Source of the DNA: Candidatus Saccharibacteria bacterium QS_5_54_17
GTDB taxonomy: Bacteria > Patescibacteriota > Saccharimonadia > QS-5-54-17
Reading direction: 5' to 3'
DNA length: 64,000 bases
Assembly (NCBI GenBank): GCA_003022365.1
Contig: PXOU01000018.1
Span: 11,900-75,899 of the forward strand
The notes below the pieces were generated by a model. That model made no database searches, was not told the origin of the DNA, and saw only the letters and a list, made by a program, of their open reading frames with translations. How positions within the stretch are numbered: position 1 is the stretch's first letter; each line of letters begins with the position of its first letter. This document shows, in pieces, positions 1 to 64,000 of the stretch. The translations under genes and the position numbers were made by a program.

Positions 1-599
1 CCCACACCACCGGCGTGGCCGTGTTCGACGACGGGGAGCTGCTCCATATGGCCATCCTGCCCGTGGGCTCAGCCCATATCAGTAATGACATCGCCATCGG
101 TTTGCGGACCGAGATAGAAACTGCTGACAAAATTAAGCTGGAGCACGTGGACGCCGATCCCGGCAATCCGCATAAGAACGAGGCATTCTCCGTGCCGGAA
201 CTCAACGGCGAGTTACTCCAGGTCAACACGGCTGACGTCAACTCCATCGCCCGGGCGCGGCTGGAAGAGTTGTGCCAGTTGATTAACAGCGAATTACAGA
301 AAGCCAAGCGGGACGGTATGTTGCCCGGCGGCGCCATTTTCAGCGGCGGCGGCGCCAATCTGCACGGGCTGACCGAGTTCGCCAAACAGTATCTCCGCCT
401 TCCGGCGCACTTGAAAATGCCCCAAGGTTTCTCCGGCATCGTGGATACCATCGAAAACCCCGAGTTCGCCACGGCCGTCGGGCTGATGCTGGAAGATATG
501 CGGGCGGAGGACGCCGGTTCCAGCAAAAAGGAACTGCAAACCTTGATTTCCGGTCTGAGAGACGCCGTAGGCGGCGTGATGGACCGTTTCCGGGGCTGA
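1..599 (+). CDS. ftsA: Cell division protein FtsA, C-terminal ~199 aa; the 5' end lies outside the window
   Basis: In-frame from position 3. Actin-like ATPase C-terminal half (…FSGGGANLHGL…). Directly upstream of ftsZ. Confidence 0.85.
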   Translation, partial: HTTGVAVFDDGELLHMAILPVGSAHISNDIAIGLRTEIETADKIKLEHVDADPGNPHKNEAFSVPELNGELLQVNTADVNSIARARLEELCQLINSELQKAKRDGMLPGGAIFSGGGANLHGLTEFAKQYLRLPAHLKMPQGFSGIVDTIENPEFATAVGLMLEDMRAEDAGSSKKELQTLISGLRDAVGGVMDRFRG

Positions 600-1330
600 T
601 AGGCCGCGTAGGAACAGGGAGCAGGAAGCAAGTAGCAAGTAAAAAAATGCAAATCCTCTCTTGTCATTCCGGCCGCCGAGCCGGAATCCATTAATCCGAC
701 ATGATCTAAAAAGCACTTTTTATACAAAATTCACGATCGTGAACTATACATAAAAGATAAGCGCAATTGCAAGGAACGTCCTTGCAAGATTAAAATCGCT
801 ACTAAAAGCGCTACTTGGCGCAAAATTGCAAGGACGTTCCTTGCAAAAATAGATCCTGAAATAAATTCAGGATGACAAAAAGTGTGTCATTCCGAACTTG
901 GTTCGGAATCGAGTCTGAAACAGATCCTGAAATAAATTCAGGATGACAATAGGGGAAGATCCTGAAACAAGCCTGCCTACCGGCAAGGTAGGTTCAGGAT
1001 GACATTTCTTTTTTGTCACCCGCTTTGTCATTCCGCCCCCGAGCCGGAATCCATTAAGCCGATACGGTATATCTTAAAAACCTGACTGCCGCACACAGAT
1101 TATACTCGAGGCTCAAAACCGTGCGCATAGCAGCACGCAGACAGCAGACAGTAAACGGCAGACAGGGAGCAGGGAGCGGGCAGCAGGAAGCAGGGAGTAA
1201 GAAGTAAGCAGATCTTAAGAGGGGTGGCGAAAAATTGTCATCCTGAACTTGTTTCAGGATCGGTTTCAGGATCTATTTCAGACTCGATTCCGAACCAAGT
1301 TCGGAATGACAAAGAGGGGAGGTCGCTGGC
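600..1330. repeat. Mosaic intergenic repeat array (hairpin modules GTCATYC…GRATGAC, twin-palindrome element 764-848, AG-rich trailer 600-650)
   Basis: Direct sequence comparison with 17 other arrays in the window. Confidence 0.8.
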
Positions 1331-1403
1331 AACCGAATACATTATTTGCCAACGCGAGTACATCAGTTATACTGACATAAGAATCAATGGGAGAGCAGAT
1401 GTT

Positions 1404-2648: not shown

Positions 2649-3170
2649 CCCACAGGAATAAGAAGTAAGCAGTAAGAAGCAAGAAGTAAGTTTCGGAATC
2701 GGTTCTGAAATAGATCCTGAAACTGATCCCGGATCGGGGTCCGGGATGACATCTTCAGGATGATGGTTATTTTTCGTCACCTTCTTTGTCATTCCGGCCA
2801 CCGAGCCGGAATCCATGAACCCGATATGATCCAGAAACAGATTCTGAAACAAGCCTGCCTACCGGCAAGGCAGGTTCAGGATGACATTTCTTTTTCGCCA
2901 CCCTCTCTGTCATTCCGAACTTGGTTCGGAATCTCATTCTGCAACAGAGAAACAGATCCCGGATCGGAGTCCGGGATGACATCTTCAGGTTCAGGATGAC
3001 GCCTTTAGAGCCCGTCCTGAACTTGTTTCAGGGATGACAATTCAGGAATGATGTTCAGCCCGGTTTTTGTTGCCGGGTTTTGATAATGATTCCGGGTGCT
3101 CGCGCACAAACACCTCCTTGTTGTTTACTGCATCCGAGGTGTTCGATATGTCGTGTCACTATACGCAAGT
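2649..3170. repeat. Mosaic intergenic repeat array; the last ~110 bp (3055-3166) is a module also found at 22040-22164
   Basis: Sequence identity to other arrays. Confidence 0.8.
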
Positions 3171-3207
3171 TTTGAAGAGTATACCTTGGTGTGCCATTAT
3201 TATTGCA

Positions 3208-3987: not shown

Positions 3988-4073
3988 ATGACCGTTGTTA
4001 CTTCCGAGAAGTTGCAATACGAACAAAAAACGAATATCATAAAAGCATAAGCATATAAATAAGGAGAGCTTTT

Positions 4074-9722: not shown

Positions 9723-10150
9723 AGGGGTAGACGGAGAACGGGGAGTAAGAAGCAAGCAGTAAGGAGTAAGTGGGAGAGGTGACACGCAATTGCAAGGACC
9801 GTCCTTGCAATGGGAGAGTTTTCTCTCTCTTTGTCATTCCGAATTTAGTTCGGAATCGTTGCTGCAATAGATCCTGAAATAAATTCAGGATGACAATAGG
9901 GGAATATCCTGAAACAAGCCTGCCTGCCGGCAGGCAGGTTCAGGATGACATCTTTTTTTGCCACCCCCTCTGTCATTCCGAAGACGTCATCCCGGACCCC
10001 GCCCGCACTGAGCAAGGTCGAAGTGATCCGGGATCAGTTCGGAATCGGCTCTGAGCCTGCAACAGATCCTGAAACAAGTTCAGGATGACATCCTTAGGAG
10101 GACATGATGTTCAATAGCCCCGAGACTATACGCTTCTTGTGAGATCTTTT
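9723..10150. repeat. Mosaic intergenic repeat array
   Basis: AG-rich trailer 9723-9775, TTGCAAGGACCGTCCTTGCAA palindrome 9787-9815, hairpin modules, and a partial TGTTCAATA…GACTATACG module 10096-10133. Confidence 0.8.
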
Positions 10151-11497: not shown

Positions 11498-12304
11498 GTG
11501 CGGTTCAATGTAGGCTCCCTTTCCACGGCCAAAGACGGGTCCCGGACCAACGAAGACACCGTATTGGTCTGGGAAGAGGCGGGGCTGTTCGGGGTGTTCG
11601 ACGGCATCGGCGGCGGTGGTGACGGCGACGTGGCCAGCTCGGTGGCTGCCCAGGCGGTGACGTCCTTTTACGCCCGTGAGTCGGGCGAGGTGGCGGCGGA
11701 CTCCTCCCAAGCTGACGGCCTGGCTCGCCAGGCGCTGGTGGAAGCCGGGCGGGCGCTGGCTCGGCGAGCAGCCCAAGCGCCATCGGTGAGTGCCGAGATG
11801 GGTACCACCGCCACCATCGGCTGTGTGCATCACGAAGAAGACGGTTTTGGCTTAACCTACGCGCATGTGGGGGATTCCGGGCTACTCGTCTACCGGCGCG
11901 ACCAGGATCACCTGACTTTCCTTACCGAAGATGAAGCCCAGGAGAATGTACTGGACAACGCCCTGACTGCCCGGGAGGAGGTGCTCCACGGTGTGCGCCA
12001 ATACGCTCGCGTAACGCTCCAGCCGGGCGACCGGCTGGTCTTTTTCACTGACGGCATCAGCGGCGACACTCCTGACCAACGGCTCAGCCGGGCGGAATAC
12101 CGGCAGGCGATCGTCGGGGTGTCGCCGCAGCAGGCGGCCCGGGCGTTGTCGGAGACCAGCCGCAAATCTGACGACACCTCGGTTGTGGTGGTGGATCCGC
12201 TGGTGGATGAGGCGAACAGGAAGCAGGAAGTAAGAAGCAAGCGGGAGACGGGGAGTAGACAGCAGACGGTAGACAGTAGACAGGGAACGGGGAACAGGGA
12301 GTAA
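11498..12304 (+). CDS. PP2C-family Ser/Thr protein phosphatase
   Basis: FDGIGGGGDGD metal-binding motif. GTG start with GGAGG SD. The last ~25 codons are translated from the AG-rich repeat module. Confidence 0.85.
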   Translation: MRFNVGSLSTAKDGSRTNEDTVLVWEEAGLFGVFDGIGGGGDGDVASSVAAQAVTSFYARESGEVAADSSQADGLARQALVEAGRALARRAAQAPSVSAEMGTTATIGCVHHEEDGFGLTYAHVGDSGLLVYRRDQDHLTFLTEDEAQENVLDNALTAREEVLHGVRQYARVTLQPGDRLVFFTDGISGDTPDQRLSRAEYRQAIVGVSPQQAARALSETSRKSDDTSVVVVDPLVDEANRKQEVRSKRETGSRQQTVDSRQGTGNRE

Positions 12305-12500
12305 GGAGTAAGAAGCAAGAAGCAAGTGAAAAAATGCAAAACCTCTATGTCATTCCGAGCCTCCTCCGTCATTCTGAACTTGTTTCAGAATCAGCATTGA
12401 AATAGATCCTGAAATAAATTCAGGATGACAATAGGGGAGGATCCTGAAATAAATTCAGGATGACATCTTCAGGAATGACATCTTTAGGAATGATACTTCG
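12305..12500. repeat. Mosaic intergenic repeat array
   Basis: AAAATGCAAAACCTCT-TGTCATTCC module plus TCCTGAA hairpins. Confidence 0.8.
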
Positions 12501-14309: not shown

Positions 14310-14560
14310 TGCAGGAGACAAGGAACAAGGAACAGGGAGCAAGGAGCAAGGAGCAAGGAACAAGGAGTAAATGGAGAAATACAAACCCTCTCTGTCATTC
14401 CGAGCCCCCTCCGTCATTCTGAACTTGTTTCAGAATCAGCATTGAAATAGATCCTGAAATAAATTCAGGATGACATCTTCAGAGCCTGTCCTGAACTTGT
14501 TTCAGGAATGACATCTTCAGAGTCTGTTGCCCTTCACTCCCTGTCTCCTGTCTACTGATT
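14310..14560. repeat. Mosaic intergenic repeat array
   Basis: The (CAAGGAG)n trailer directly follows the stop codon. Confidence 0.8.
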
Positions 14561-14643: not shown

Positions 14644-14795
14644 ATCTGATTGGTGTGGGGTGGAAATCACGCCGATGGCCGGTCCGGAACCGGGCCATCT
14701 GAGGTGAGGGACCCGGGCCAATACGGGGTGCCTTGACAAGCCGCGTACGTGCATTCGAGATGCACGCCGCGTCTTTGCCCGCCCGGGCAAGGACG
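14644..14795 (+). promoter_or_regulatory. Structured GC-rich leader RNA; candidate riboswitch (ydaO/c-di-AMP-like motifs GGGGTGGAAATC, CCGGAACCG, GGGACCCG, ACGGGGTGCC)
   Basis: Nested hairpins GATGGCC…GGCCATC. Sits between the promoter and the terminator, 170 nt upstream of the CDS. Confidence 0.4.
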
Positions 14796-19136: not shown

Positions 19137-19139
19137 CGC

Positions 19140-19745
19140 GCACCTAACCCGGGGGGTGAGCTTCATCTCTCACCCCTCCGCGCTCCCTGGGGGTACCACA
19201 GGAGTACCCCCAGGTGCCAACCAAGAGGAAGCAAGTGGGGGTCAGTAGACAGCAGACAGTAGACAGGGGAAAAACAACGGGAAGCAAGGAGTAAGAAGTA
19301 AGAAGCAAGTGGCAGTCAGTAGACAGGAGACAGCAGACAGGGGAAAAAGAACGGGAAGTAAGCAGTAAGTAAGAGGCGCGACACACAATTACAAGGAACG
19401 TCCTTGCAATATTAAAAATCACTACCAAAAGCGCTACTTGGCGCAAAATTGCAAGGACGTTCCTTGCAAAAGGAGGGTTTTTTCTCTTTTTGTCACTGGG
19501 AATTTAGTTCGGAATCGTTTCTACAGCAGATCCTGGAATAGATCCTGAAATAAATTCAGGATGACAGTAGGAATAGATCCTGAAACAAGCCTGCCTGCCG
19601 GCAGGCAGGTTCAGGATGACATTTTCCGTTACCCCCCCTCTGTCATTCCGAAGACGTCATCCCGGACCCCGCCTGCACTGAGTAAGGTCGAAGTGATCCG
19701 GGATCAGTTCGGAATCTGATTCCGCAACAGGGGAACGATCACGGA
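19140..19745. repeat. Mosaic intergenic repeat array (two tandem AG-rich trailers, twin-palindrome element 19385-19471)
   Basis: Sequence identity to other arrays. Confidence 0.8.
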
Positions 19746-21769: not shown

Positions 21770-22170
21770 CCCTCTTTGTCACTGTGAACCTCCTCTGTCA
21801 CTGCGAATTTAGTTCGGAATCGTTTCTGCAACAGTTCCTGAAATAGATCCTGAAACAAGCCTGCCTGCCGGCAGGCAGGTTCAGGATGACACTTCTTTTT
21901 CGTTACCCCCCCCTCTGTCATTCCGAAGACGTCATCCCGGACCCCGATCCGGGATCAGGTTCGGAATCCAATCCTGACACTGGGCCTAAAACTGATCCTG
22001 AAATAAATTCAGGATGACAATTCAGGGGTGACATATTCAGGAATGACATTTAGTCCGGTTTTTGTTGCAGGGTTTTTGATAATAGTTCCGGGTTTTACGC
22101 CCGTGAACACCTCCTTGTTGTTTACTGCATCCGAGGTGTTCAATAAGCCGGGCGACTATACGCCATACTT
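21770..22170. repeat. Mosaic intergenic repeat array ending in a 110-bp module shared with 3055-3166
   Basis: Sequence identity. Confidence 0.8.
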
Positions 22171-22206: not shown

Positions 22207-23301
22207 ATGCATGAGATAACCAAAGAACTCCACGCGCTGCTCGGGCGCATCGAAGAAGCCAGCCGCCAGCTGGGCATCGAAACCAAGCAACGCCGGATCT
22301 CGGAAATGGAGCGTTCCATGCAGTCGCCGGAATTCTGGCAGGATCCCGAGACGGCGGCGGCGACCTCCAAGCAACACGCCCATTTGAAAAAACAGGTGGA
22401 CTCCTGGCAACAGTTGCGCCAAGACGCCCGGGCGGCGCTGGATCTGGCCCGGATGGAAGATCACCAGTTGCTGGAGGAGCTAAAGGAGCAATATACCGAC
22501 ATTAAATCCCGGTTCGAGGAAAAGGAATTGGAAGTCAAACTCTCCGGAGTCTACGACGGCCATGACGCCATCCTCCACATCCATAGCGGCACCGGCGGAA
22601 CCGACGCCCAGGACTGGGCGCGGATGCTGGAACGGATGTACCTGCGATTCGCCGACCGGAGCCAGCTGCAGGCGGAAATTTTGAGCCGGTCCCAAGGCGA
22701 GGAAGCCGGTATTAAGAGCGCCATTGTCCGACTGGAAGGCTCCTATGCCTACGGGCGGCTGAAAGGTGAGCACGGCGTGCACCGGCTGGTGAGAAAAAGC
22801 CCCTTTAATTCCGATAATTTGCGCCAGACCAGTTTCGCCCTGGTGGAGGTGACCCCCGACATCCCCGAACCGGAAACTGATGACATTAATGAAAATGATG
22901 TAACCATCGATACCTATCGGGCCAGCGGCAAAGGTGGCCAGGGGGTAAACACCACCGACTCGGCCGTCCGGATCACCCACCAACCCACCGGCATCATGGT
23001 GGCTATTCAGAACGAACGTTCCCAACTGCACAACAAGCAAACCGCCTGGAAGATCCTCCGCGCCCGCCTGGCCCGGCTCCGGGAGGAACAGCGGGCGGAA
23101 ACCATCGACGAACTCCGAGGGTCCCATTTAACCGAGCAGTGGGGGAGCCAGATCCGCAATTACGTACTCCATCCCTATACCTTAGTCAAGGATACCCGGA
23201 CCGGAGTGGAAACTGCCCAAGCCGAAGCAGTCCTGGAAGGCGAGCTGGATGATTTCATCGACGCCTACTTAACCCAGCAGATCGGAGTCAGTAGGCAGTA
23301 G
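22207..23301 (+). CDS. prfB: Peptide chain release factor 2
   Basis: SPF and GGQ motifs. Uninterrupted ORF with no +1 frameshift site. Confidence 0.9.
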   Translation: MHEITKELHALLGRIEEASRQLGIETKQRRISEMERSMQSPEFWQDPETAAATSKQHAHLKKQVDSWQQLRQDARAALDLARMEDHQLLEELKEQYTDIKSRFEEKELEVKLSGVYDGHDAILHIHSGTGGTDAQDWARMLERMYLRFADRSQLQAEILSRSQGEEAGIKSAIVRLEGSYAYGRLKGEHGVHRLVRKSPFNSDNLRQTSFALVEVTPDIPEPETDDINENDVTIDTYRASGKGGQGVNTTDSAVRITHQPTGIMVAIQNERSQLHNKQTAWKILRARLARLREEQRAETIDELRGSHLTEQWGSQIRNYVLHPYTLVKDTRTGVETAQAEAVLEGELDDFIDAYLTQQIGVSRQ

Positions 23302-23640
23302 ACAGGGAACAAGGAACAGGGAACAAGGAGCAGGGAGCAAGAAGTAAGTGACACGCAATTGCAAGGAACGTCCTTGCAATATTAAAAATCGTTACCAAAA
23401 GCGCTACTTGGCGCGAAATTGCAAGGACGTTCCTTGCAAAAGGAGGGCCTCCTCTCTTTTTGTCACTGCGAACTTGGTTCGGAATCGTTTCTGCAAAAAA
23501 TCCCGGCATAGATCCTGAAACAAGCCTGCCTGCCGGCAGGCAGGTTCAGGATGACAATAGGGGAAGATCCTGAAACAAGTTCAGGATGACACTTTTCCCC
23601 TCTCTGTCATTCCGGCCGGCGAGCCGGAATCCTTTAACGT
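23302..23640. repeat. Mosaic intergenic repeat array (twin-palindrome element 23355-23441)
   Basis: Sequence identity. Confidence 0.8.
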
Positions 23641-26769: not shown

Positions 26770-27250
26770 GTTAAACGGATACTCCCGGGGCCAAAACAGG
26801 AAGCAGGAAGTAAGTGGGAGACATATACGTAATTGCAAGGACGGTCCTTGCAAAAGGAGGGTTCTCTCTCTTTGTCATTCCGAATTTAATTCGGAATCGT
26901 TTCTGTAACAGATCCTGAAACAAGTTCAGGATGACACTTCTTTTTCGTTACCCCTCTCCGTCATTCCGAAGACGTCATCCCGGACCCCGATCCAAGATCA
27001 GTTCGGAATCGGGTTTGAAACTGATCCTGAAACCGATCCTGAAACAAGTTCAGGATGACAATAGGGGAAGATCCTGAAATAAATTCAGGATGACACTCCT
27101 TTTTCGTTACCCCTCTCCGTCATTCCGAAGACGTCATCCCGGACCCCGATCCGGGATCAGGTTCGGAATCGGCTCTGATTTTAAAACCTCCTTGTTGTTT
27201 ACTGCATCCGAGATGTTCAATATGTCCCGAGACTATACGGGCCTACATTC
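26770..27250. repeat. Mosaic intergenic repeat array
   Basis: Sequence identity, including the TGTTCAATA…GACTATACG module 27186-27240. Confidence 0.8.
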
Positions 27251-28261: not shown

Positions 28262-29491
28262 GTGGAACAAAACCAAAGCGACGAGCAGAAAAACAACAAA
28301 CGGTTCCAGGGAGGTTTTGGGCTGCCCACGGTGTTGGCCGTCGGCGCGGTGGTGGGTATCTTGGGCTTCGGATTGGGCAAACAGACCGGTCCCCTCAACC
28401 TGAACCAATACGCCTCCACCAATCAGGAGCTTCCCCAGGACCTCAGCTACCAATCGGTGGAGGAAGTCTACGACAAACTCCGGGAAAGATACGCCGGTGA
28501 CCTGGAGCGGGAGGCGCTCATCAACGGCATGAAAAGCGGGTTGGTCAAGGCAGCCGACGACCCGTTTACCCAGTACTTGGACGCCGAAGCGGCCACCAGA
28601 TTAGAGCAAAACCTGGAAGGCGAATTCGGCGGCATCGGTGCTGAAATCGGCAGACGTGACGGGCAACTGGTGATCGTGGCCCCGCTTGAGGGCACTCCGG
28701 CCGATGAAGCCGGCTTACAACCCCAGGATGCCATCGTGGCGGTGGACGGGGATAACGCCTCCGAGTGGACCATTCAGAAAGCCGTCAAGCGGATCCGGGG
28801 TGAAGAAGGGACCGATGTCACCCTGACCATCGTCCGTGATAACCAGAGCCGTGACGTTACCATCACCCGCGGGCAGATCGATACCCCCAGCGTCAAATCC
28901 GAGATGAAAAAGGGAGACATTGGCTACATCGAACTGACCCAGTTCAGCCAGGACTCCGCCCAGGAATTCCACCGGGCCGCCTCCCAGCTGCAGCAGCAAG
29001 GCGCCGAATCCATCATCGTCGACGTGCGCAATAACACCGGCGGTTATCTGGAGGCGGGCATTAACATCACCAGTGAATTCCTGGAGTCGGGGACGGTGAT
29101 CACCGAGCAACGCCGGGACGGGGAAGTCTTGAGCACGGAACGAGCCAGTAGCGGCGGTGAGTTGATGGGTGTGCCAGCGGTAGTCTTAATCAACGGCGGT
29201 TCGGCCAGCGCCAGCGAGATCATGGCCGGGGCGCTGCGGGACCACGACGCGGCCACCCTGGTGGGCCAGCAAACCTTCGGCAAGGGCAGCGTACAGGACT
29301 TAGCCGAATTCAGCGACGGCAGCGTCTTGAAAGTTACCATCGCCCGATGGTACACACCGGATGGCTCCAACATCGCCGAGGAAGGCATTACGCCGGACAA
29401 AGAGGTCAAAGCCAGCCGGGAAGAGATCCAAAACGGCAATGACCCGCAATTGCAACGGGCGCTGGACATACTCACCCAGCAGCGGGAATAG
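28262..29491 (+). CDS. Carboxyl-terminal processing protease (S41, PDZ-containing), CtpA-like
   Basis: PDZ domain and S41 motif GGSASASE. N-terminal membrane anchor. GTG start. Confidence 0.85.
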   Translation: MEQNQSDEQKNNKRFQGGFGLPTVLAVGAVVGILGFGLGKQTGPLNLNQYASTNQELPQDLSYQSVEEVYDKLRERYAGDLEREALINGMKSGLVKAADDPFTQYLDAEAATRLEQNLEGEFGGIGAEIGRRDGQLVIVAPLEGTPADEAGLQPQDAIVAVDGDNASEWTIQKAVKRIRGEEGTDVTLTIVRDNQSRDVTITRGQIDTPSVKSEMKKGDIGYIELTQFSQDSAQEFHRAASQLQQQGAESIIVDVRNNTGGYLEAGINITSEFLESGTVITEQRRDGEVLSTERASSGGELMGVPAVVLINGGSASASEIMAGALRDHDAATLVGQQTFGKGSVQDLAEFSDGSVLKVTIARWYTPDGSNIAEEGITPDKEVKASREEIQNGNDPQLQRALDILTQQRE

Positions 29492-29866
29492 GAAGCAAGT
29501 AGCAAGAAGCAGGGAGCAGCAAGAAGTAAGTGGAAAGAAGCAAGTTTCGGAATCAGCTTTGAAACAGATCCTGAAACAAGTTCAGGATGACATCTCTTTT
29601 TCGTTACCCCCTCTGTCATTCCGAACTTGGTTCGGAATCTAATTCTGTAATACGGAAACTTATCCCGGATCACTTCGACCTTGTCCGCCCCAGGCGGACA
29701 GGCTCAGTGCGGGCGGGGTCCATAGCCTGTCCTGAATTCATTTCAGGAATGACATCTTCAGAGCCTGTCCTGAACTTGTTTCAGGAATGACAGGTTCAGA
29801 GCCTGTTGCTTCTCACCCCCTGTCTACCGTCTACTGTCTGCTGATTACTGTCTTTTGTTCCCCGCG
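29492..29866. repeat. Mosaic intergenic repeat array; 29800-29866 is a reverse-oriented trailer that supplies the last ~15 codons of pyrG
   Basis: Sequence identity. Confidence 0.8.
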
Positions 29867-33059: not shown

Positions 33060-33523
33060 GAAAGCGTGGCGAGTAGCGCATATAGTCTCCCGGCGGCGGG
33101 ATTAGGAAGCAAGCAAAAAACAGAAAGTAGACGGCGAGTGAGAAACAGCAGGCTCTGAATATGTCATTCCTGAAACAAGTTCAGGACAGGCTCTGAATTT
33201 ATTTCAGGATCGGTTTCAGAATCATCCTTTCTTGTCATCCTGAACTTGGTTCAGGATCTGTTTTAAAACCATATCGGGTTAATGGATTCCGGCTCGACGG
33301 CCGGAATGACAAAGGGGCTGTGCAACTTTTGCAAGGACCGTCCTTGCAATTTTGCGCCGAGCAGCGCTTTTGGTAGCGATTTTTAATTTTGCAAGGACGG
33401 TCCTTGCAATTGTCGGTCCGGGATCGTTTTTCTGTTGCAGAATGAGATTCCGAAACAAGTTCGGAATGACAAAGAGGAAAAACAAGGAGGTGTTCAATAA
33501 GCAGGGAGACTATACGCCCGTAT
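33060..33523. repeat. Mosaic intergenic repeat array (inverted twin-palindrome element 33326-33412)
   Basis: Sequence identity. Confidence 0.8.
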
Positions 33524-33949: not shown

Positions 33950-34345
33950 CCTCCAGCAGTAGGCAGACAGCAGACAGGGAAAAGGGAACAAGAAGCAAGA
34001 AGCAGGGAGCAGGGAGCAAGCAGTAAGAAGTAAGAAGCAAGAAGTAAAAGTCTGGTAAATCCACCTTCGGCGCCGCGATTCACACTCTTGTCATCCTGAA
34101 TTTATTTCAGGATCAGATTCCGAACCAAGTTCGGAATGACAAATAGGGTAACCTCGTAATAACAAACTTTCTCTATGTCATCCTGAAGACGTCATCCCGG
34201 ACCCCGCCGGCACTGAGCAAGGTCGAAGTGATCCGGGATCGTTTCCTTGTTGCAGAATGAGATTCCGAAACAGGTTCGGAATGACGGAGGAGGCTCGGAA
34301 TGACAAAGAGGGTTTGCATTTTCTCGCTTACTCCCTACTTCTTAC
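33950..34345. repeat. Mosaic intergenic repeat array
   Basis: AG-rich trailer 33950-34070, hairpin modules, and a reverse-oriented trailer 34300-34345. Confidence 0.8.
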
Positions 34346-34400
34346 TGCTTACTTCTGGTTCTATGCCCGGTGTGCTGAGGTGTACTACAATGCGTAGGTA

Positions 34401-37379: not shown

Positions 37380-37815
37380 GACAGAAACTTATTGAACAGC
37401 TTCTCGCTGTCCCTCTTTGTCATTCCGAATTTAGTTCGGAATCGTTTCTGCAACAGGGAAACGATCCCGGACCGGTAATTGCAAGGACCGTCCTTGCAAA
37501 ATTAAAAATCGCTACCAAAAGCGCTACTCGGCGCAAAATTGCAAGGACGGTCCTTGCAAGAGTTGCACAGTACCTCCGTCATTCCGGCCCCCGAGCCCCG
37601 AATCCATTAACCGATATGTTCCTGAAATCAAGCCTGCAATAGATCCTGAAACAAGTTCAGGACAGGCTATGACCCCGATCCGGGATCAGTTTCAGAATCT
37701 GTTTTATAACTGATTCCGAAACAAGTTCGGAATGACAGAGAGGCTTTGCATTTTTTTACTTGCTTCTTGCTTCTTACTGCTTACTTCCTATTCCCGCTGC
37801 CGGGAGACTATACGG
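37380..37815. repeat. Mosaic intergenic repeat array (twin-palindrome element 37476-37560)
   Basis: Sequence identity. Confidence 0.8.
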
Positions 37816-39287: not shown

Positions 39288-39600
39288 CGAAATAGGCGGC
39301 AGACAGGAAGAAGAAGCAAGGAGTAAGAAGTAGGGAGTAAGTGAGAAAATGCGAAGCCTCTTTGCCATTCCGAGCCCCCTCTGTCATTCCGAACTTGGTT
39401 CGGAATCGGCTGATACTGAAACAGATCCTGAAATAAATTCAGGATGACAAGGGAGGAGGATCCTGAAACAAGTTCAGGATGACAGTTCGGACCCACCTCT
39501 GAACCTGAAACGGATCCTGAAATTCAGGATGACACTCCTCTTTGTCATTCCGGCCCCCGTCCGCACTGAGCCATGTCGAAGTGAGCCCCGAATCCAGGGG
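39288..39600. repeat. Mosaic intergenic repeat array
   Basis: Sequence identity. Confidence 0.8.
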
Positions 39601-45250: not shown

Positions 45251-46108
45251 ATGCATTCCGAGCAGAGAGGCGAAGGGGGAGCAGCAGATAATTATTCCGA
45301 TATGGCATCGACTGCCGAATACGCACCTGACTCGGCCGTTTTTTTCGAGCGCATTGCCGATCAGTCCTGGATGAGTGGGGAGGTTACCGAGAAATCCACG
45401 GCCCGCTTGAAGAGTGAACTCGACCAACAAGCCCGCCCGGCATTGGATGAATGGAGCTGGTTGTGGACACACCATTTGTTGCAATTGACCGATTATATGC
45501 GGCAGGCGGCTCGTCAAGAACCGAATATCGAAAACCTGGGAGTGTCAGATCCGGATACCCACCCGGAGATGCATCAGGAAATATCGGAAACCTCGCATAT
45601 GCCGGAAGGTATGAACGTCGATCATGAGTTGTTGCAACAGATTTTTGCAGTGGTGAGCGGGCACGTAATGGGGGAAGCGGCCCATTCACCCCGGACCACT
45701 GAGCCTGAGCAAGTGAGGGATAGGTGGTCGGAGGTGATGGGCGTTAACGGGGATAACCAAGCACCAAATCAAGCACATGCGAGCTCAGATCAGCTGGATA
45801 TGTACGCCCATCTTGAGACCACCTTCGATTCCATGCAGGTGATGCTGAATGCCCGGAACTTGATTATTGATCGGATCAGCGACATGAAAGCCCAGCTGGA
45901 CATGCAACCCGTCCAACAGGCCCGGCGGGACGAACTGTTCGACAAGGCGGAACGTCTGGCCCGGCACATCACCACGTCGTCAGAAGGTGAATCGCCTGCC
46001 AACGATGTCGACGAGACGTTTGTTGCCATCGCCCGGGACACCATCCGGCTTATACACGACAACAGTGTGGCGCGCCAGCACCGGCTCCGGCAAACCAACC
46101 CTGCCTGA
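45251..46108 (+). CDS. Hypothetical acidic protein
   Basis: AAAAGGAG SD. Follows the repeat protein on the same strand. Confidence 0.55.
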   Translation: MHSEQRGEGGAADNYSDMASTAEYAPDSAVFFERIADQSWMSGEVTEKSTARLKSELDQQARPALDEWSWLWTHHLLQLTDYMRQAARQEPNIENLGVSDPDTHPEMHQEISETSHMPEGMNVDHELLQQIFAVVSGHVMGEAAHSPRTTEPEQVRDRWSEVMGVNGDNQAPNQAHASSDQLDMYAHLETTFDSMQVMLNARNLIIDRISDMKAQLDMQPVQQARRDELFDKAERLARHITTSSEGESPANDVDETFVAIARDTIRLIHDNSVARQHRLRQTNPA

Positions 46109-46555
46109 GGAACAAGAAGCAAGCAGTAAGAAGCAAGAAGTAAGGAGCAAGCGGGGGTCAGTAGACAGGAGACGGTAGACAGTAGACAGGGAACAAAAAA
46201 CAAGAAGCAGGAAGTAAGGAGGAAGAAGTAAGTAGGAAATGCAAAGCCTCTTTGTCATTCCGGCCCCCGCCCGCACTGAGCAAGGTCGAAGTGAGCCCCG
46301 AATCCATGAAGCCGATATGGTTTAGAAACTGATCCTGAAACAAGTTCAGGATGACAAGAGAGGAAGATCCTGAAATAAATTCAGGATGACAATTTAGGGG
46401 TGACACTCCTCTCCGTCATTCCGAACTTGGTTCGGAATCGTTTCTACAACTGATCCTGAAACCGATCCTGAAATAAATTCAGAGCCTGTCCTGAACTTGT
46501 TTCAGGAATGACATCTTCAGAGCCTGTTGTTTCTCACCCCCTGTCGGACGAGGAT
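46109..46555. repeat. Mosaic intergenic repeat array
   Basis: Sequence identity. Confidence 0.8.
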
Positions 46556-47689: not shown

Positions 47690-48060
47690 ACGATTATAGC
47701 AGGCGGGAACAGGGAACAGGGAACAGGGAGCAAGGAGCAAGGAGCAAGGAGCAAGAAGTAAGCAGTAAGCAGGAAAATACAAACCTCCTCTGTCATTCTG
47801 AACTTGGTTCAGAATCTAATTATGCAATCCGGAAACGGATCCCGAATCGACAATTGCAAGGACCGTCCCTGCAATACATAAATGCCGCATAAGCTTTTGT
47901 TTAGCAAATCTTGCAAGGACGGTCCTTGCAATTGCGTGTCACCTCTCACGCTTGCTTCTTACTGCTTACTCCTTGCTTCTTGTTCCTGTTATCCTGAAGA
48001 CGTCATCCCGGACTCCGATCCGGGATCCGTTTCAGGATCCTTTATAAGAACCACGGAAAA
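47690..48060. repeat. Mosaic intergenic repeat array (variant twin-palindrome element 47861-47933)
   Basis: Sequence identity. Confidence 0.8.
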
Positions 48061-56502: not shown

Positions 56503-56880
56503 CCCGGTAGAGGGGGGTAAGCAGGTAACAGTAGGCGGTAGACAGCAGACAGCAGACAGGGAAAAAGGAACAAGTAGCAGGGAGCAAGGAGTAAGGAGTA
56601 AGCGGATCTTAAGAGGAGTGGCGAAAAAATGTCATCCTGAATTTATTTCAGGATCTGTTTTAGACTCAGAGCGATTCCGAAACTGATCCCGGATCGGAGT
56701 CCGGGATGACGTCTTCGGAATGACAAAGAGGGTAACAAAAAAAAGAAGTGCCCTCCTAAAGATGTCATCCTGAACTTGTTTCAGGATCTATTTAAAACCA
56801 TATCGGCTTAATGGATGCCGGCTCGGCGGCCGGAATGACAAAGAGGGGAGACAGGGAGTAAGGAGCAAGCAGCAGGGAGT
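56503..56880. repeat. Mosaic intergenic repeat array
   Basis: The trailer module directly follows the ftsQ stop. Confidence 0.8.
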
Positions 56881-57510
56881 AAAAAGCAAGTAAACGAATT
56901 CCAAATTCCAATAGAAATGTTCAGATTGCAAATAGGAGATTGCCCGACCCTGCTCTGTTTCTGTTCGTTTTTTGTTCAAACATGTTGGCGACAGCGACCA
57001 GGCGCAAAAAATATATGAAAATACTAGCGGCAAACATGTCAAATATACACAAAAATATAATAGGAAAGAGAAGAGGGGAAAGTGTCAATAGTCCCAAATC
57101 AAGCAATTCAATAAATAACCCCCGTAACTAATATGTTGTGGAAAACGTGACGTGCCTCACATCAACCGTAACGTATGTAATGCAGCTGCGGGAAGGTCTT
57201 TTAAAAGGTAGTCACCACAAGTAACACCACAGGCGAGATCACCGGAATAACCGGATTCGTTGGTGTAACTTGACGCGTTACACACCATCAGCTGCTCCAC
57301 TATCCCGGCCAAGGGACCCTGATACCACAAATAAGACGTACGATACGCCATATATTAGCTTACTGCGGGAACGTCGCAAAATATGCATTGTGCGACGTTG
57401 CATTTATTTCGGTTGTTTCGGTGCAATCGTCCGGCTCGATTGAGTTTGCTTTGCGGGTTACGCCCATGTATTCCTCCCTACCCGGCATTACCCTGTTTTG
57501 GTGTTATGGC

Positions 57511-61329: not shown

Positions 61330-61725
61330 TACATAAGGGCTTTCGCTTCTATGAAAACCGGACGAAATGTCATTCCTGAAATAGATTAAGAGTAGGCTTT
61401 GAATCTGTCATCCTGAACTTGGTTCAGGATCTGTTTCAAAATTATCCTCTCTTGTCATCCTGAACCTGCCTGCCGGCAGGCAGGCCGGAATGACAACGAG
61501 AGTGACGAAAAAGAAGTGTCATCCTGAACTTGTTTCAGGATCTATTTCAATGCTGATTCTGAAACAAGTTCAGAATGACGGAGGAGGCTAAGAATAACAA
61601 AGAGGTTTTGCGTTTTTTATCACTTACTTCCTGCTTCTTACTTCTTGCTTCCTGTTCCCTCTTCCCTGTCTACCGTCTACCGTCTCCTGTCTACTGACTC
61701 CCACTTGCTGCTTACTTCTTACTTC
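61330..61725. repeat. Mosaic intergenic repeat array; a reverse-oriented trailer 61600-61725 follows the topA stop
   Basis: Sequence identity. Confidence 0.8.
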
Positions 61726-64000
61726 TTACTGCTTGCTTTTTGTTCCTTGGTTGGGTCCCGAACGCGAAGCGCTCCCCGACTTCTTGGATGTCTTGGATTT
61801 CTTTTTGACGTTGTCCAGGATTTCTTGTGCCTGCGCCCGGTCCAGATCTTGGGGAGTGATGTTCTTGGGTATTTTGGCGTTTTTGGAGCCGTTGGTTACG
61901 TAGGGTCCGAACCGGCCGTTGAGCACTTTGATGCCGCCCAGATCAGCGATGGTGCGTTTAGCTTTTTGCTCCCGCTGCTGGGTCAAGGCGGTTCGGGCGG
62001 TGGTTTGGGAGACACTGAACGGGTCGTCGCCTTCGGGGATGGCCGCGAAAGTATCCCCGCTTTTGACATACGGTCCGTAACGGCCGTAGTTGGCATAAAT
62101 CTCCGATCCGTCTTCCTCGGTTCCCACATAGCGGGGAAGTTGCAATAGGCGCAACGCCTCCTCAAAGGTAACGGAATGGATCTTTTCCCCGTTTGGGATG
62201 GGGGCGAATTTCGGTTTCTGCTCGTCTTCGGGGCGCCCCAGCTGCAACATGGGTCCGTACTTGCCCATCCGGGCGATGACGGGCCGGCCGGTATCCGGGT
62301 CGGTCCCTAGCTCCCGGGCGCCGCTGGCTTGCTCGCGGGAAAGCGATCCCGCTGCTTCGACTTTTTCATGGAAGGGGCCATAAAAGTCGGCAATCATGCG
62401 GTTCCAGGCTTCCTTGCCGCGGGCGACGCGGTCGAATGCCTCTTCCACTTCTTTGGTAAAGTCGTAATCCACGATGTCATCGAACTGCTTGGTCAAAAAG
62501 TCGTTTACCAGCAAGGCGATCTGGGTCGGGAATAGTTTATTCTTATCCTGCCCGTACATGATGGTTTCCTCGGCTTCGGTGACATCACTTCCGCCGCTCT
62601 CTAGTGACAGCGTGACGACGTCGCGTTTGCTTCCCGGGGTATTCCCCTTTTCGACATATCCCCGGTCCTGGATGGTCGAAATCGTCGGGGCGTAGGTGGA
62701 GGGCCGGCCGATGCCCATGGCTTCCAGTTTCCGTACCAAGGCCGCTTCACTGTAGCGGGTGGGCGGGCGTTTGAAGGTTTGCCGTGCCTGGACGGCATTC
62801 CGGGTTAGCGCCTCGCCGGCCTCGACCGTCGGCAGCACGATGTCGGTGATGGCCGTATCCTGGTGCGCTTTTAGCCAGCCCGGGAAGGTAATGACTTCTC
62901 CTTTAGCTTTGAACGGACTGCTAAGGCTCGGGGACTGAATGGTGATGGCGGTTTTATTGAGGGTGGCGGCGGCCATCTGGCTGGCCAGGGTTCGGCCGCG
63001 GATGAGTTCGTACAAGCGTTGCTCGCCCTTATCATCGGAGACTGACTGGGCGGCGACATCGGTGGGCCGGATAGCTTCATGGGCTTCCTGGGCGTCGGAG
63101 CGGCTCTTATAGCTACGGTATTGATGATATTCGGCCCCGAAGGTTTGCTCGACCACGCGCTTGATCTGTCCCAGCGCGTTACCCGAAAGCGTTACCGAGT
63201 CAGTCCGCATATAAGTGATGTGCCCGGCTTCATAGAGGCGCTGTGCCAACGTCATGGTTTGCTTGACGCTGTATCCCAGTTTCCGGGAGGCGACTTGTTG
63301 TAAGGTGGACGTCGTAAACGGCGCGGCCGGGTTGCGCGTGCCGGGTTTTTCCGTCACGTCTCCGACCGTGAATTGCGCATCCGCCATGGACTCCAGTAAC
63401 TGGCGCGCCGTGGATGCATCCCGGACGGTTTCGGCCAGTTCCGCCGGCAGTTCTTCCCCGCTCTGGGTACTGAATGTTGCCGATATTTTGAAGGTGCTCT
63501 CAGGCTCGAAATCCTCGATCTCCCGTTCGCGCTCCACAATCAACCGGACGGCTACCGATTGCACCCTTCCGGCGCTTAACCCCGGCTGTACTTTCCTCCA
63601 TAAGAGCGGTGATATTTCATATCCCACCAACCGGTCCAGCACCCGCCGGGCTTGTTGGGTGTCGACCAGGTTCTGGTCAATGCTGCGGGGGTTCCGCATG
63701 GCTTCGGTTATGGCCTGGGGGGTAATTTCGTGGAAGGTGATGCGTTTGGTCGATTGTTGACTGAGTTCCAGCACTTGCATTAAGTGCCAGGCGATGGCTT
63801 CCCCTTCCCGGTCCTCATCGGTTGCCAGCCAGACCGTGTCCGCCTTTTGGGCCGCTTGCTTGAGTTTGCGTATCTGGGGCTGTTTGTTGTCGGGGACGAT
63901 GTATTGGGGTTCGAATTGGTTCTGGGTGTCGATGGCCATTTCCTTGGAGGGTAGATCCCGTACGTGGCCGTAACTGGAGAGTACGGTATACTCCTCGCCC
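61726..64000 (-). CDS. topA: DNA topoisomerase I (N-terminus beyond the window end)
   Basis: Toprim DREGEAI. Active-site region RLYEAGHITYMRTDS. GHVRDLP is visible at 63940-64000. Lys-rich C-terminal tail. Confidence 0.9.
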   Translation of the reverse strand, partial: GEEYTVLSSYGHVRDLPSKEMAIDTQNQFEPQYIVPDNKQPQIRKLKQAAQKADTVWLATDEDREGEAIAWHLMQVLELSQQSTKRITFHEITPQAITEAMRNPRSIDQNLVDTQQARRVLDRLVGYEISPLLWRKVQPGLSAGRVQSVAVRLIVEREREIEDFEPESTFKISATFSTQSGEELPAELAETVRDASTARQLLESMADAQFTVGDVTEKPGTRNPAAPFTTSTLQQVASRKLGYSVKQTMTLAQRLYEAGHITYMRTDSVTLSGNALGQIKRVVEQTFGAEYHQYRSYKSRSDAQEAHEAIRPTDVAAQSVSDDKGEQRLYELIRGRTLASQMAAATLNKTAITIQSPSLSSPFKAKGEVITFPGWLKAHQDTAITDIVLPTVEAGEALTRNAVQARQTFKRPPTRYSEAALVRKLEAMGIGRPSTYAPTISTIQDRGYVEKGNTPGSKRDVVTLSLESGGSDVTEAEETIMYGQDKNKLFPTQIALLVNDFLTKQFDDIVDYDFTKEVEEAFDRVARGKEAWNRMIADFYGPFHEKVEAAGSLSREQASGARELGTDPDTGRPVIARMGKYGPMLQLGRPEDEQKPKFAPIPNGEKIHSVTFEEALRLLQLPRYVGTEEDGSEIYANYGRYGPYVKSGDTFAAIPEGDDPFSVSQTTARTALTQQREQKAKRTIADLGGIKVLNGRFGPYVTNGSKNAKIPKNITPQDLDRAQAQEILDNVKKKSKTSKKSGSASRSGPNQGTKSKQ

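What the first reader, a model, noticed from the sequence alone, without database searches (positions are those of the whole stretch)
600..1330. Pervasive combinatorial palindromic repeat arrays fill about 18 intergenic regions
Nearly every intergenic gap longer than about 150 bp is built from the same small module set. The modules are hairpins with a shared stem base GTCAT(T/C)C…G(A/G)ATGAC and variable interiors:
- GTCATTCCGAACTTGGTTCGGAATGAC
- TCCTGAAACAAGTTCAGGA
- TCCTGAAATAAATTCAGGA
- CCTGCCTGCCGGCAGGCAGG
- GTCATCCCGGACCCCGATCCGGGATC
- GTCATTCCGGCCGCCGAGCCGGAATC

They are concatenated in different orders and orientations. Arrays lie at 600-1330, 2649-3170, 9723-10150, 12305-12500, 14310-14560, 19140-19745, 21770-22170, 23302-23640, 26770-27250, 29492-29866, 33060-33523, 33950-34345, 37380-37815, 39288-39600, 46109-46555, 47690-48060, 56503-56880 and 61330-61725. 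By eye that is roughly 7 kb, more than 10% of the window. For a compact, otherwise gene-dense genome this is an exceptional load of REP/BIME- or MITE-like elements. I could not match it to a named repeat family.
Basis: seen in the sequence. Interest (0 to 1): 0.8.

Follow-up and report, generated by a model that had tools for sequence, protein, structure and literature searches.

The report
Mosaic hairpin-repeat arrays between genes
Most of the longer gaps between genes in this small Saccharibacteria (candidate phyla radiation) genome are packed with short hairpin repeats of two already-described kinds, one tied elsewhere to a small single-strand DNA nuclease and one to a tyrosine transposase, so this is a heavy new case of a known phenomenon, not a new kind of element.

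Summary
All 18 arrays exist. 66 of 68 GTCAT-tagged perfect hairpins are intergenic, against 0.6 expected by chance.

The hairpins fit the published "CGTC-tagged REP" superfamily, which includes Neisseria dRS3/NTS and the "Ssn-related motifs". They have a T/CGTC head, an 8-9 bp stem that starts AT, a short loop, and a C after the stem in 65 of 66.

The same 26-mer occurs in many phyla. In five loci from other genomes it lies next to an 82-104 aa single-domain GIY-YIG gene, flanking it on both sides in the two read in full.

In at least 14 metagenome contigs it adjoins an IS200-like (Y1, RAYT-like) transposase gene.

Other parts are purine-rich heptamer runs and small palindromes nested in hairpin loops.

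A syntenic relative (SecA 88% identical) has none of the named modules in 18 kb. A strain at 97% has them in a different order. Arrays continue outside the window.

No nuclease or transposase gene was found in about 80 kb of this genome, so how the repeats spread here is inferred.

Verdict: a new member of known kinds, arranged as NIME/BIME-like mosaics. Moderate interest.

The parts
600..1330 (.). Array 1, ftsA-ftsZ gap. Two sub-arrays, each opening with a heptamer run (608-647, 1153-1213). Contains an inverted doublet of the TTGCAAGGA palindrome (767-846) and 7 tagged hairpins.
   Evidence: The gap is 804 nt here and 227 nt in syntenic relative L121.
2649..3170 (.). Array 2, downstream of ftsZ. 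The hairpin at 2841-2895 carries a nested 21-nt palindrome that is absent from the orthologous hairpin of strain L123.
9723..10150 (.). Array 3. Order: heptamers, one TTGCAAGGA palindrome (9790-9810), tail-to-tail hairpin heterodimer (9832-9895), hairpin with nested CCTGCCTGCCGGCAGGCAGG (9919-9938), nested double hairpin.
12210..12500 (.). Array 4. Heptamer runs at 12210-12334 (overlapping the end of the PP2C ORF), tail-to-tail heterodimer at 12367-12430, then 15-nt half-hairpin tandem repeats at 12454-12493.
14310..14560 (.). Array 5. 87% identical to array 4 over 160 nt.
   Evidence: (family D17)
19140..19745 (.). Array 6. Heptamers, palindrome doublet at 19389-19469, hairpins, nested palindrome at 19590-19609.
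21770..22170 (.). Array 7. Includes a hairpin nested in the loop of another hairpin (21915-21969) and a conserved box just upstream of prfA (22105-22165).
   Evidence: (D20)
23288..23640 (.). Array 8. The palindrome doublet at 23359-23439 folds as a 22-bp single-strand DNA hairpin (dG -29.3 kcal/mol, z = -7.6).
26770..27250 (.). Array 9. Holds a 159-nt tandem duplication of a hairpin block. One ENA contig lacks about 90-125 nt here.
29480..29866 (.). Array 10, between convergent genes. Heptamer runs in sense orientation at both edges.
33060..33523 (.). Array 11, with modules in reversed order and orientation. Palindrome doublet at 33329-33409.
33950..34360 (.). Array 12. Bounded by inverted heptamer runs (33958-34052 on +, 34327-34356 on -).
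37380..37815 (.). Array 13. Palindrome doublet at 37479-37559 and a reversed heptamer run at 37750-37798.
39288..39600 (.). Array 14. Tail-to-tail heterodimer at 39382-39449.
46100..46555 (.). Array 15, between convergent genes.
47690..48060 (.). Array 16, between divergent genes. Bounded by inverted heptamer runs (47696-47777 on +, 47951-47990 on -). Palindrome pair at 47854-47931.
56503..56890 (.). Array 17.
61330..61750 (.). Array 18, between two minus-strand genes. Modules and heptamers are reversed. Tail-to-tail heterodimer at 61517-61580.
9832..9895 (+). Representative 64-nt tail-to-tail heterodimer: TGTCATTCCGAATTTAGTTCGGAATC, a 12-nt spacer, then GATCCTGAAATAAATTCAGGATGACA. It has the same layout as the hairpin-gene-hairpin units seen in other genomes, but without the gene.

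Best explanation
The arrays are intergenic mosaic clusters of several families of small elements that form single-strand DNA hairpins. They resemble Neisseria NIMEs and enterobacterial BIMEs. They expanded recently in one Saccharimonadia lineage.

Main component (shown). The hairpins are CGTC/TGTC-tagged REPs, the class that includes Neisseria dRS3/NTS and the "Ssn-related motifs". Each has an unpaired T/CGTC head, an 8-9 bp Watson-Crick stem that starts AT, a 3-6 nt loop, and a C right after the stem. In other genomes, including candidate-phyla-radiation genomes, the very same hairpins lie next to a roughly 95-aa single-domain GIY-YIG gene; in the two loci read in full (L049, L265) they flank it on both sides as outward-facing terminal inverted repeats.

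Second component (shown). The TTGCAAGGA-N3-TCCTTGCAA palindrome is present as inverted doublets that fold into one long hairpin, as REPINs do. In other metagenome contigs it adjoins, and in five contigs brackets, IS200-like Y1 (RAYT-like) transposase genes.

Other parts (shown). Purine-rich heptamer runs are an older feature of this lineage. Small palindromes sit inside hairpin loops.

Mechanism (inferred). The 64-76 nt tail-to-tail hairpin pairs are gene-less derivatives of hairpin-nuclease-hairpin units. They are recognised as folded single-strand DNA, during replication or DNA uptake, by an Ssn-type nuclease that binds the stem and its 3' C and cuts a few bases upstream. The TTGCAAGGA doublets are copied by a Y1 transposase. 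Both enzymes would be encoded elsewhere in the genome, or have been lost. Recombination between copies then shuffles the arrays.
For: Anatomy:
- 66 intergenic hairpins. The base before GTC is T in 52 and C in 14.
- The stem is 8-9 bp in 64 of 66. The loop is 3-6 nt in 53 and 25-32 nt in 13 (nested inserts).
- The base after the stem is C in 65 of 66.
- These match the written definition of CGTC REPs. The head and the 3' C are the features found critical for SsnA cleavage and binding.
- The hairpins fold with the head and tail unpaired.
- Stem variants differ by compensatory changes only: 100% of cells paired, and 4 of 8 pairs change on both sides.

Link to enzymes in other genomes:
- The same 26-mer lies next to 82-104 aa GIY-YIG ORFs (PF01541) in L049, L044, L054 and L100, and in a Levybacteria genome, L265. 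L049 and L265 were read in full and have a hairpin on each side of the gene.
- That nuclease subfamily has 5180 clusters. Its closest named members come from candidate-phyla-radiation genomes.
- The TTGCAAGGA palindrome adjoins Y1_Tnp genes in at least 14 of 120 contigs and brackets them in 5.
- The doublets in the window are inverted pairs that fold into a 22-bp hairpin.

Recent expansion and turnover:
- None of the named modules in 18 kb of a syntenic relative with SecA 88% identical, and a single generic GTCA-tagged hairpin.
- Module order differs in a strain at 97%, including a clean 21-nt palindrome insertion in a hairpin loop.
- Arrays also lie outside the window.
Against: - No GIY-YIG or Y1 transposase gene was found in the window or in the roughly 16 kb beside it. 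This is weak evidence, because such genes are usually single-copy and the genome is probably near 1 Mb.
- The published degenerate SRM search pattern matches only 3 sites here, because the stems are AT-rich.
- Dimer types are mixed: 16 tail-to-tail, 15 head-to-tail, 12 head-to-head. The published CGTC families are mostly head-to-head.
- The CCA tail is rare (4 of 66).
- The TTGCAAGGA palindromes lack the GTAG head of classical RAYT REPs.
- No published work shows that Ssn nucleases copy or move their motifs, so the copying step is unproven.
- The covariation alignment used sequences picked by a hairpin finder, so it is partly circular.
Confidence: 0.75

Rival explanations
1. The hairpins are kept mainly because they work in RNA. 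As 3'-UTR stem-loops they would stop transcription or protect mRNA from 3' exonucleases, as proposed for E. coli REPs. The arrays would then be host regulatory modules and not selfish DNA.
For: - The arrays are almost all intergenic, and most begin at or near a stop codon.
- Every unit folds stably.
- Di Nocera 2013 notes that many REPs lie downstream of ORFs and may act as RNA.
Against: - A close syntenic relative manages without them.
- Array content differs between strains whose SecA is 97% identical.
- Units occur in both orientations in the same gap.
- The hairpins lack U-tracts, and at least one gap has its own classical terminator downstream of the array (14769-14806).
- Arrays also sit between divergent genes (47690-48060).
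- The asymmetric head and tail are conserved, which a plain RNA stem-loop does not need.
Confidence: 0.12
2. The 64-76 nt units are classical MITEs. They would be cut and pasted by a DDE transposase that recognises TGTCAT...ATGACA terminal inverted repeats.
For: - The units have 26-nt inverted ends beginning TG and ending CA.
- They have no coding capacity and a high copy number.
Against: - The 8 units show no consistent target-site duplication.
- Single hairpins, head-to-tail runs and half-hairpin tandem repeats are as common as pairs.
- In two other genomes read in full (L049, L265) the gene bounded by the same ends is a GIY-YIG nuclease, not a DDE transposase, and it lies beside the hairpin in three more.
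- No transposase is present in about 80 kb.
Confidence: 0.05
3. The arrays are an assembly or binning artefact, or a local duplication confined to this region.
For: One short-read contig differs from the window by about 90-125 nt inside array 26770-27250. Contigs of the sister strain break inside repeats.
Against: - Three ENA contigs match the window at 100% over 12.6, 21.4 and 13.8 kb. They may be the source of the window, so they are not independent of it.
- A different sample (JGI) yields a related strain with the same modules.
- Arrays occur upstream and downstream of the window.
- The modules occur in isolate genomes of other phyla.
Confidence: 0.02

Closest known systems
Neisseria dRS3/NTS repeats in NIMEs (Neisseria intergenic mosaic elements), with the SsnA GIY-YIG single-strand nuclease (Chenal et al. 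2025, PMC11893778)
   Same: - The frame is the same: (C/T)GTCAT, then a stem, loop and stem, then ATC. Compare the NTS, CGTCATTCCCGCGMAVGCGGGAATCYRG.
- The head is conserved and oriented, and a C follows the stem.
- The repeats are almost all intergenic and clustered in mosaics with other repeats.
- In other genomes the same hairpins lie next to a small single-domain GIY-YIG gene, on both sides in the two read in full, in an IS-like layout.
   Different: - The stems are AT-rich (ATCCTGAA, ATTCCGAA), and most units escape the published search pattern.
- The host is a candidate-phyla-radiation bacterium, a group the paper does not mention.
- No ssn gene has yet been seen in this genome.
- Any effect on DNA uptake is untested.
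CGTC-tagged REP superfamily, families CGTC-1 to CGTC-4, including Rickettsia RPE-4/RPE-6 and the Wolbachia clusters (Di Nocera et al. 2013, PMC3733652)
   Same: - The head is CGTC or TGTC.
- The stem is 8-9 bp and starts AT.
- The loop is short.
- Pairs are heterodimers.
- Large clusters occur in host-associated bacteria with small genomes.
   Different: - The tail is rarely CCA.
- Tail-to-tail and head-to-tail pairs are as common as head-to-head pairs.
- The family was known in 5 phyla, and Patescibacteria is not one of them.
REPIN-RAYT systems and E. coli BIMEs (Bertels & Rainey 2011; Nunvar 2010)
   Same: - The TTGCAAGGA palindromes come as inverted doublets with a short spacer that fold into one long hairpin.
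- In other contigs the palindrome brackets a Y1 (IS200-like) transposase whose best NCBIfam match is "REP-associated tyrosine transposase".
   Different: - There is no GTAG head.
- The transposase scores below the NCBIfam cut-off (43 against 80 bits).
- The palindrome is spread over contigs whose GC content ranges from 0.30 to 0.66, whereas REPINs are described as vertically inherited.
- No RAYT was seen in about 80 kb here.
Cyanobacterial STRR heptanucleotide tandem repeats (from my own memory, not tested)
   Same: Period-7 tandem runs in intergenic DNA.
   Different: The units differ (AGCAAGG, AGTAAGA, GACAGTA). The runs here are purine-rich, oriented, and often mark the edges of arrays.

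Membership tests
CGTC-tagged REP (Di Nocera 2013) | Unpaired CGTC head at one end of the stem-loop (TGTC in many repeats) | tested here: met
   66 of 66 intergenic hairpins. The base before GTC is T in 52 and C in 14. The head is unpaired in the folds.
CGTC-tagged REP (Di Nocera 2013) | Stem of 8-9 bp whose first two pairs are A-T and T-A | tested here: met
   The stem is 8 bp in 53 units and 9 bp in 11, so 64 of 66. All begin AT. Note that the search required GTCA[CT].
CGTC-tagged REP (Di Nocera 2013) | Loop of 4-5 nt | tested here: inconclusive
   Loop lengths: 5 nt in 31 units, 3 nt in 12, 6 nt in 10, and 25-32 nt in 13 because of nested inserts.
CGTC-tagged REP (Di Nocera 2013) | Short unpaired tail, mostly CCA | tested here: not met
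   The first tail base is C in 65 of 66, but the tail is CCA in only 4 of 66.
CGTC-tagged REP (Di Nocera 2013) | Mostly head-to-head dimers | tested here: not met
   16 tail-to-tail, 15 head-to-tail and 12 head-to-head.
Ssn-related motif (SRM) / Ssn system (Chenal 2025) | Match to the published search sequence HGTCWYN(0-2)YYVSBRHN(0-5)WNVSBRGN(0-2)RNCYNB | tested here: not met
   3 matches in the window, against 0.4 in shuffles. Only the GC-rich GTCATCCCGGA type fits.
Ssn-related motif (SRM) / Ssn system (Chenal 2025) | Oriented hairpin with a conserved three bases upstream of the stem and a C right after it (the bases found critical for cutting and binding) | tested here: met
   GTC lies upstream in all units and a C follows in 65 of 66. 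Criteria taken.
Ssn-related motif (SRM) / Ssn system (Chenal 2025) | Motif flanks a single-domain GIY-YIG gene of about 94 aa (motif-gene-motif) | tested here: met
   Met in other genomes that carry the identical hairpin. L049 and L265 were read in full and have a hairpin on both sides of the gene; in L044, L054 and L100 the hairpin lies next to the gene. Membership of those proteins in CDD family cd10448 could not be checked.
Ssn-related motif (SRM) / Ssn system (Chenal 2025) | An ssn gene in the same genome as the repeats | not testable with these tools
   None in the window or in L120 and L143, about 80 kb in all. The rest of the genome could not be reached.
Ssn-related motif (SRM) / Ssn system (Chenal 2025) | Single-strand DNA-specific binding and cutting upstream of the motif | not testable with these tools
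   This needs biochemistry.
REPIN / RAYT | Two REPs in inverted orientation, with a short spacer, that fold into one long hairpin | tested here: met
   Six pairs, 57-60 nt start to start, at 767/826, 19389/19449, 23359/23419, 33329/33389, 37479/37539 and 47854/47911. In the five checked the centres are reverse complements, for example GGAACGTCC and GGACGTTCC; the 19389 copy is degenerate (TTACAAGGA). The 23359/23419 pair, the one folded, gives a 22-bp hairpin with z = -7.6.
REPIN / RAYT | A Y1 (RAYT) gene flanked by the same REP | tested here: met
   Met in other metagenome contigs. The gene is bracketed in L148, L153, L158, L247 and L256, and adjacent in at least 9 more. Pfam gives Y1_Tnp. 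The NCBIfam model REP_Tyr_transpos scores below its cut-off. No such gene was found in about 80 kb of this genome.
REPIN / RAYT | GTAG tetranucleotide head | tested here: not met
   The flanks read (A/C)AATTGCAAGGA...TCCTTGCAA(A/T)A, with no GTAG.
NIME / BIME mosaic element | Intergenic clusters of REP units interleaved with other repeat families, in variable order and orientation | tested here: met
   18 clusters. The modules are shared, but their order differs between clusters and between strains.
MITE (DDE transposase type) | Terminal inverted repeats plus a target-site duplication | tested here: not met
   Inverted ends are present, but 5 of 8 units have no duplication and the other three show only a 2-3 nt match.
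CRISPR array / known RNA family | Regular repeat-spacer period, or a match to an Rfam model | tested here: not met
   Spacing is irregular. Rfam gives 0 hits at gathering score, and only weak chance hits at E-values up to 10.

The most novel reading that the evidence does not exclude
In a bacterium that lives attached to a host cell and is thought to depend on imported DNA, at least three unrelated families of single-strand hairpin elements have expanded together to fill the longer intergenic gaps, inserting into each other's loops. They are the Ssn-type motifs, the RAYT-type REPINs and the small nested palindromes. No enzyme gene lies nearby.

The arrays might not be mere junk. They could act as genome-wide punctuation for a single-strand DNA restriction system that decides which incoming or replicating strands are cut between genes, as the NTS/SsnA pair does for transformation in Neisseria. 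Alternatively, they could be driven in trans by enzymes of other community members.

The identical 26-mer, and nucleases 50-80% identical across phyla, would then mark a mobile single-strand nuclease module that crosses phylum boundaries.
Probability: 0.15. Interest if true: 0.75.

Novelty: new member of a known kind. Interest (0 to 1): 0.5.

Why it matters
Candidate-phyla-radiation genomes are usually described as streamlined and poor in mobile DNA. Here roughly a tenth of a 64-kb stretch is recently gained hairpin repeats, and it roughly triples some intergenic gaps.

- It extends the CGTC-REP / Ssn-motif superfamily to Patescibacteria. It also shows that the published search pattern misses AT-rich variants, so that survey probably undercounts the family.
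- It gives a natural case where Ssn-type and RAYT-type repeats share the same arrays and nest in one another. This could help test how such repeats are copied, a question both source papers leave open.
- On the practical side, these arrays break short-read assemblies of such genomes.

Tried and rejected
- Rfam: no hit in the window at gathering score. At E-values up to 10 on 550-3250 only chance miRNA and sRNA hits appeared. No relevant family was found in 12 other loci.
- tRNA and tmRNA: none.
- Literature searches with sequence strings returned only unrelated primers. Searches for Saccharibacteria or Patescibacteria together with REP terms found nothing relevant.
- The published SRM pattern gave only 3 hits.
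- A GIY-YIG motif regex and tblastn with remembered YhbQ-like and consensus sequences found nothing in the window, L120, L123, L125 or L126. tblastn with real hairpin-associated GIY-YIG and RAYT proteins found nothing in this genome's loci.
- The look-up of the topA ORF as mechanically delimited failed, and my first ftsZ coordinates were out of frame.
- Viral contigs: only 16 hits among 2.9 million contigs, so phages are not an obvious carrier.
- PDB sequence search with the Y1 transposase: no hit.
- Considered and dropped after reading the sequences (no dedicated search was run):
  - Integron attC sites, because there is no GTTRRRY core and no integrase.
  - Hammerhead-like ribozyme cores, because the core bases are absent.
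  - IS91 target tetranucleotides in the loops, because they are not kept in the ATAAA-loop variant.
  - Intrinsic terminators, because there are no T-tracts.

Full report
**Observation**

The region 600-1330 and the other 17 listed regions are dense mosaics of short repeats.
- GATCCTGAAAYAARTTCAGGATGACA occurs 25 times at up to 2 mismatches, with 0 expected.
- GTCATTCCGAAYTTRGTTCGGAAT occurs 16 times, with 0 expected.
- A generic search for GTCA[CT] followed by a perfect stem of at least 7 bp finds 68 hairpins, against 0.6 in my own approximately dinucleotide-preserving shuffles. 66 of the 68 are intergenic.
- Intergenic DNA is 19.5% of the window. 39% of it, against 2.1% of coding DNA, lies in 11-mers seen at least four times.
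Six other gaps longer than 150 nt have none.

- The units are asymmetric, with a GTC head and a C tail. The symmetric module 1 as written does not occur.
- Several modules were not listed. These are 23 purine-rich period-7 runs, 14 copies of TTGCAAGGA-N3-TCCTTGCAA, and a loop insert, GCACTGAGCAAGGTCGAAGTG.

**Source and surroundings**

SecA places the organism in Saccharimonadia, within Patescibacteria (the candidate phyla radiation). The best named hits are about 69% identical. The flanking genes are ordinary housekeeping genes: ftsA, ftsZ, secA, prfA, ftsEX, pyrG, rpmA, xseAB, recO and the mraZ-murG cluster. There is no transposase.

The window is identical to contigs of ENA assembly ERZ27230158. 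The exception is one contig that lacks about 90-125 nt inside array 26770-27250.

**Not confined to the window, and recent**
- The 8.6 kb upstream (L120) holds 8 tagged hairpins in three gaps. The 7.3 kb downstream (L143) holds one array.
- A syntenic relative with SecA 88% identical (L121) has none of the named modules in 18 kb and a single generic GTCA-tagged hairpin. Its ftsA-ftsZ gap is 227 nt, against 804 nt here. A 69% relative (L122) has none at all.
- A strain at 97% from another sample (L123) has the modules in a different order.
- One difference between the strains is a clean polymorphism. The hairpin at window 2841-2895 holds a 21-nt palindrome in its loop, and the orthologous hairpin in L123 is uninterrupted.

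**What the hairpins are**

The exact 26-mer is found in at least 119 stretches of GTDB representative genomes. The hosts are many candidate-phyla-radiation groups, Melainabacteria, Bacteroidota, Alpha-, Gamma- and Deltaproteobacteria, Spirochaetes, Elusimicrobia and Dependentiae, and they include isolates. In 48 of 127 hits a second hairpin lies in inverted orientation within 120 nt upstream, mostly 5-45 nt away. The stems differ only by compensatory changes.

Two papers describe this class.
- Di Nocera et al. 2013 define CGTC-tagged REPs. The head is CGTC or TGTC, the stem is 8-9 bp and starts AT, the loop is 4-5 nt, and there is a short tail. CGTC-1 is Neisseria dRS3. Clusters occur in Neisseria and Wolbachia.
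- Chenal et al. 2025 show that the oriented Neisseria version (NTS, CGTCATTCCCGCGMAVGCGGGAATCYRG) and related "SRM" motifs are bound as single-strand DNA hairpins by SsnA, a 94-aa single-domain GIY-YIG nuclease. It cuts a few bases upstream. The three bases before the stem matter most for cutting, and the C after the stem matters most for binding. The gene is typically flanked by its motif.

The window's 66 hairpins fit this description.
- The base before GTC is T in 52 and C in 14.
- The stem is 8-9 bp in 64.
- The loop is 3-6 nt in 53.
- A C follows the stem in 65.

They depart from it in three ways: the CCA tail is rare, the dimer types are mixed, and only 3 fit the published degenerate search pattern because the stems are AT-rich.

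**Link to the nuclease**

Four of the 119 loci fetched for the 26-mer have an 82-104 aa ORF matching PF01541 next to it. In L049 perfect 26-nt inverted copies bound the gene.

That nuclease subfamily has 5180 clusters, and its nearest named members are from candidate-phyla-radiation genomes. In a Levybacteria genome the gene sits between folA and thyA. On one side is TGTCATCCTGAACTTGTTTCAGGATC and on the other GATTCCGAAATGAATTCGGAATGACA, with the heads pointing outward.

That is the same pairing of stem types as the eight 64-76 nt tail-to-tail heterodimers in the window. Those heterodimers have no consistent target duplication.

**Second family**

TTGCAAGGA-N3-TCCTTGCAA occurs in at least 120 metagenome stretches of varied GC content. 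At least 14 of them have a 203-231 aa Y1_Tnp gene beside the palindrome, and five have the gene bracketed by two copies. The best NCBIfam model is "REP-associated tyrosine transposase", below its cut-off.

In the window six pairs lie 57-60 nt apart start to start. In the five checked the centres are reverse complements, so they are inverted doublets. The pair that was folded forms a 22-bp hairpin (dG -29.3 kcal/mol, z = -7.6). That is the REPIN layout.

**Missing piece**

No GIY-YIG or Y1 gene lies in the roughly 80 kb of this genome that I could read. The mechanism of spread here is therefore inferred. Neither source paper shows how CGTC/SRM repeats are copied.

**Rivals**
- An RNA role for the hairpins is not excluded but is not needed. 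A close relative lacks them, their orientation is mixed, and separate terminators exist.
- A DDE-type MITE is unlikely.
- An assembly artefact is excluded.

**Verdict**

This is a heavy, recent expansion, in a candidate-phyla-radiation lineage, of two known kinds of hairpin repeat arranged as NIME/BIME-like mosaics. It is a new member of known kinds. I found no paper in the library describing these repeats in Patescibacteria.

Noticed in passing
window 608-647, 1153-1213, 2652-2690, 12210-12334, 14308-14375, 23293-23351, 33958-34052, 47696-47777 (+); 34327-34356, 37750-37798, 47951-47990, 61617-61749 (-): Purine-rich tandem runs of period 7, with units such as AGCAAGG, AGTAAGA, GACAGTA and AACAGGG. 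Many start at a stop codon in the sense orientation, which puts TAA/TAG in all three frames. Others bound an array on both sides in inverted orientation. Relatives without hairpin modules also have GGAGTAT/GAAGTAT runs after stop codons (L121 13625-13665 and 15790-15830; L124 1475-1525). The runs therefore look older than the hairpin invasion.
   Followed up: partly
window 3095-3165, 22105-22165, 27185-27240, 33475-33515, 10100-10132, 37790-37815; L123 14-58: A conserved box, ...CCTCCTTGTTGTTTACTGCATCCGAGGTGTTCAATA-N(6-8)-GAGACTATACG. It usually lies 40-90 nt upstream of a plus-strand start codon. It contains a 9-bp inverted repeat, GAACACCTC...GAGGTGTTC. It may be a promoter-carrying module or a 5'-UTR element. 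One copy (33475) faces the 3' end of a minus-strand gene.
   Followed up: no
window 3067-5541: An EcoRII-C-like endonuclease gene, a DNA cytosine methylase gene and a 68-aa ORF form a low-GC island (0.41, against 0.56 for the window). It sits between ftsZ and secA. It is absent from the 97% strain L123 and from relative L121, so it is a recent gain of a restriction-modification system right beside an array.
   Followed up: partly
window 26937-27026 vs L125 6821-6854: ENA contig k119_110486 lacks about 90-125 nt, one unit of a 159-nt tandem block, that the window has. This is either an assembly collapse or variation within the population.
   Followed up: partly
window 9993-10035, 19663-19705, 34198-34240, 39555-39590, 46262-46300; reversed with a further nested hairpin at 29670-29725: A 25-nt insert, CGCCCGCACTGAGCAAGGTCGAAGT, sits inside the loops of GTCATCCCGGA-type hairpins. 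At 29670-29725 the insert itself holds another small hairpin, GTCCGCCCCAGGCGGAC, giving three levels of nesting. Its origin is unknown.
   Followed up: no
window 12454-12493, 22007-22049, 14452-14527, 29724-29806; L265 1385-1446; L044 and L055 next to the hairpin: Tandem repeats of half-hairpins (15-nt unit TTCAGGAATGACATC, and 38-nt units) lie beside full hairpins. The same habit appears next to the GIY-YIG gene in a Levybacteria genome, where CATTGTCATCCTGAACT occurs three times.
   Followed up: no
window 56890-57510: About 600 nt of AT-richer DNA with no convincing ORF, no Rfam hit and none of the repeat modules, between array 17 and the DUF87/TrwB-like gene.
   Followed up: no
window 42854-45058; 17223-21639: Two kinds of repeat-rich proteins. 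A 734-aa protein has nine repeats of about 30 aa (period 87-99 nt). Two neighbouring large ORFs share 300-nt repeat units and long Gln/Glu-rich tracts.
   Followed up: no
L054 (binned as Gammaproteobacteria) vs P0144, P0172-P0178 (Levybacteria, Microgenomates): The hairpin-associated GIY-YIG protein of a bin labelled Gammaproteobacteria is 70-80% identical to proteins from candidate-phyla-radiation genomes. The copies in Flavobacteriaceae and Gammaproteobacteria are 49-61% identical to each other. This points to cross-phylum transfer of the unit, or to mis-binned contigs.
   Followed up: partly
L102 (Microgenomates) around position 160-190 of the reverse strand; window 9919-9938 and 4 more: The 20-nt palindrome CCTGCCTGCCGGCAGGCAGG also lies next to tagged hairpins in an unrelated candidate-phyla-radiation genome. 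It too is a shared, probably independent, small element. No partner protein was identified.
   Followed up: no
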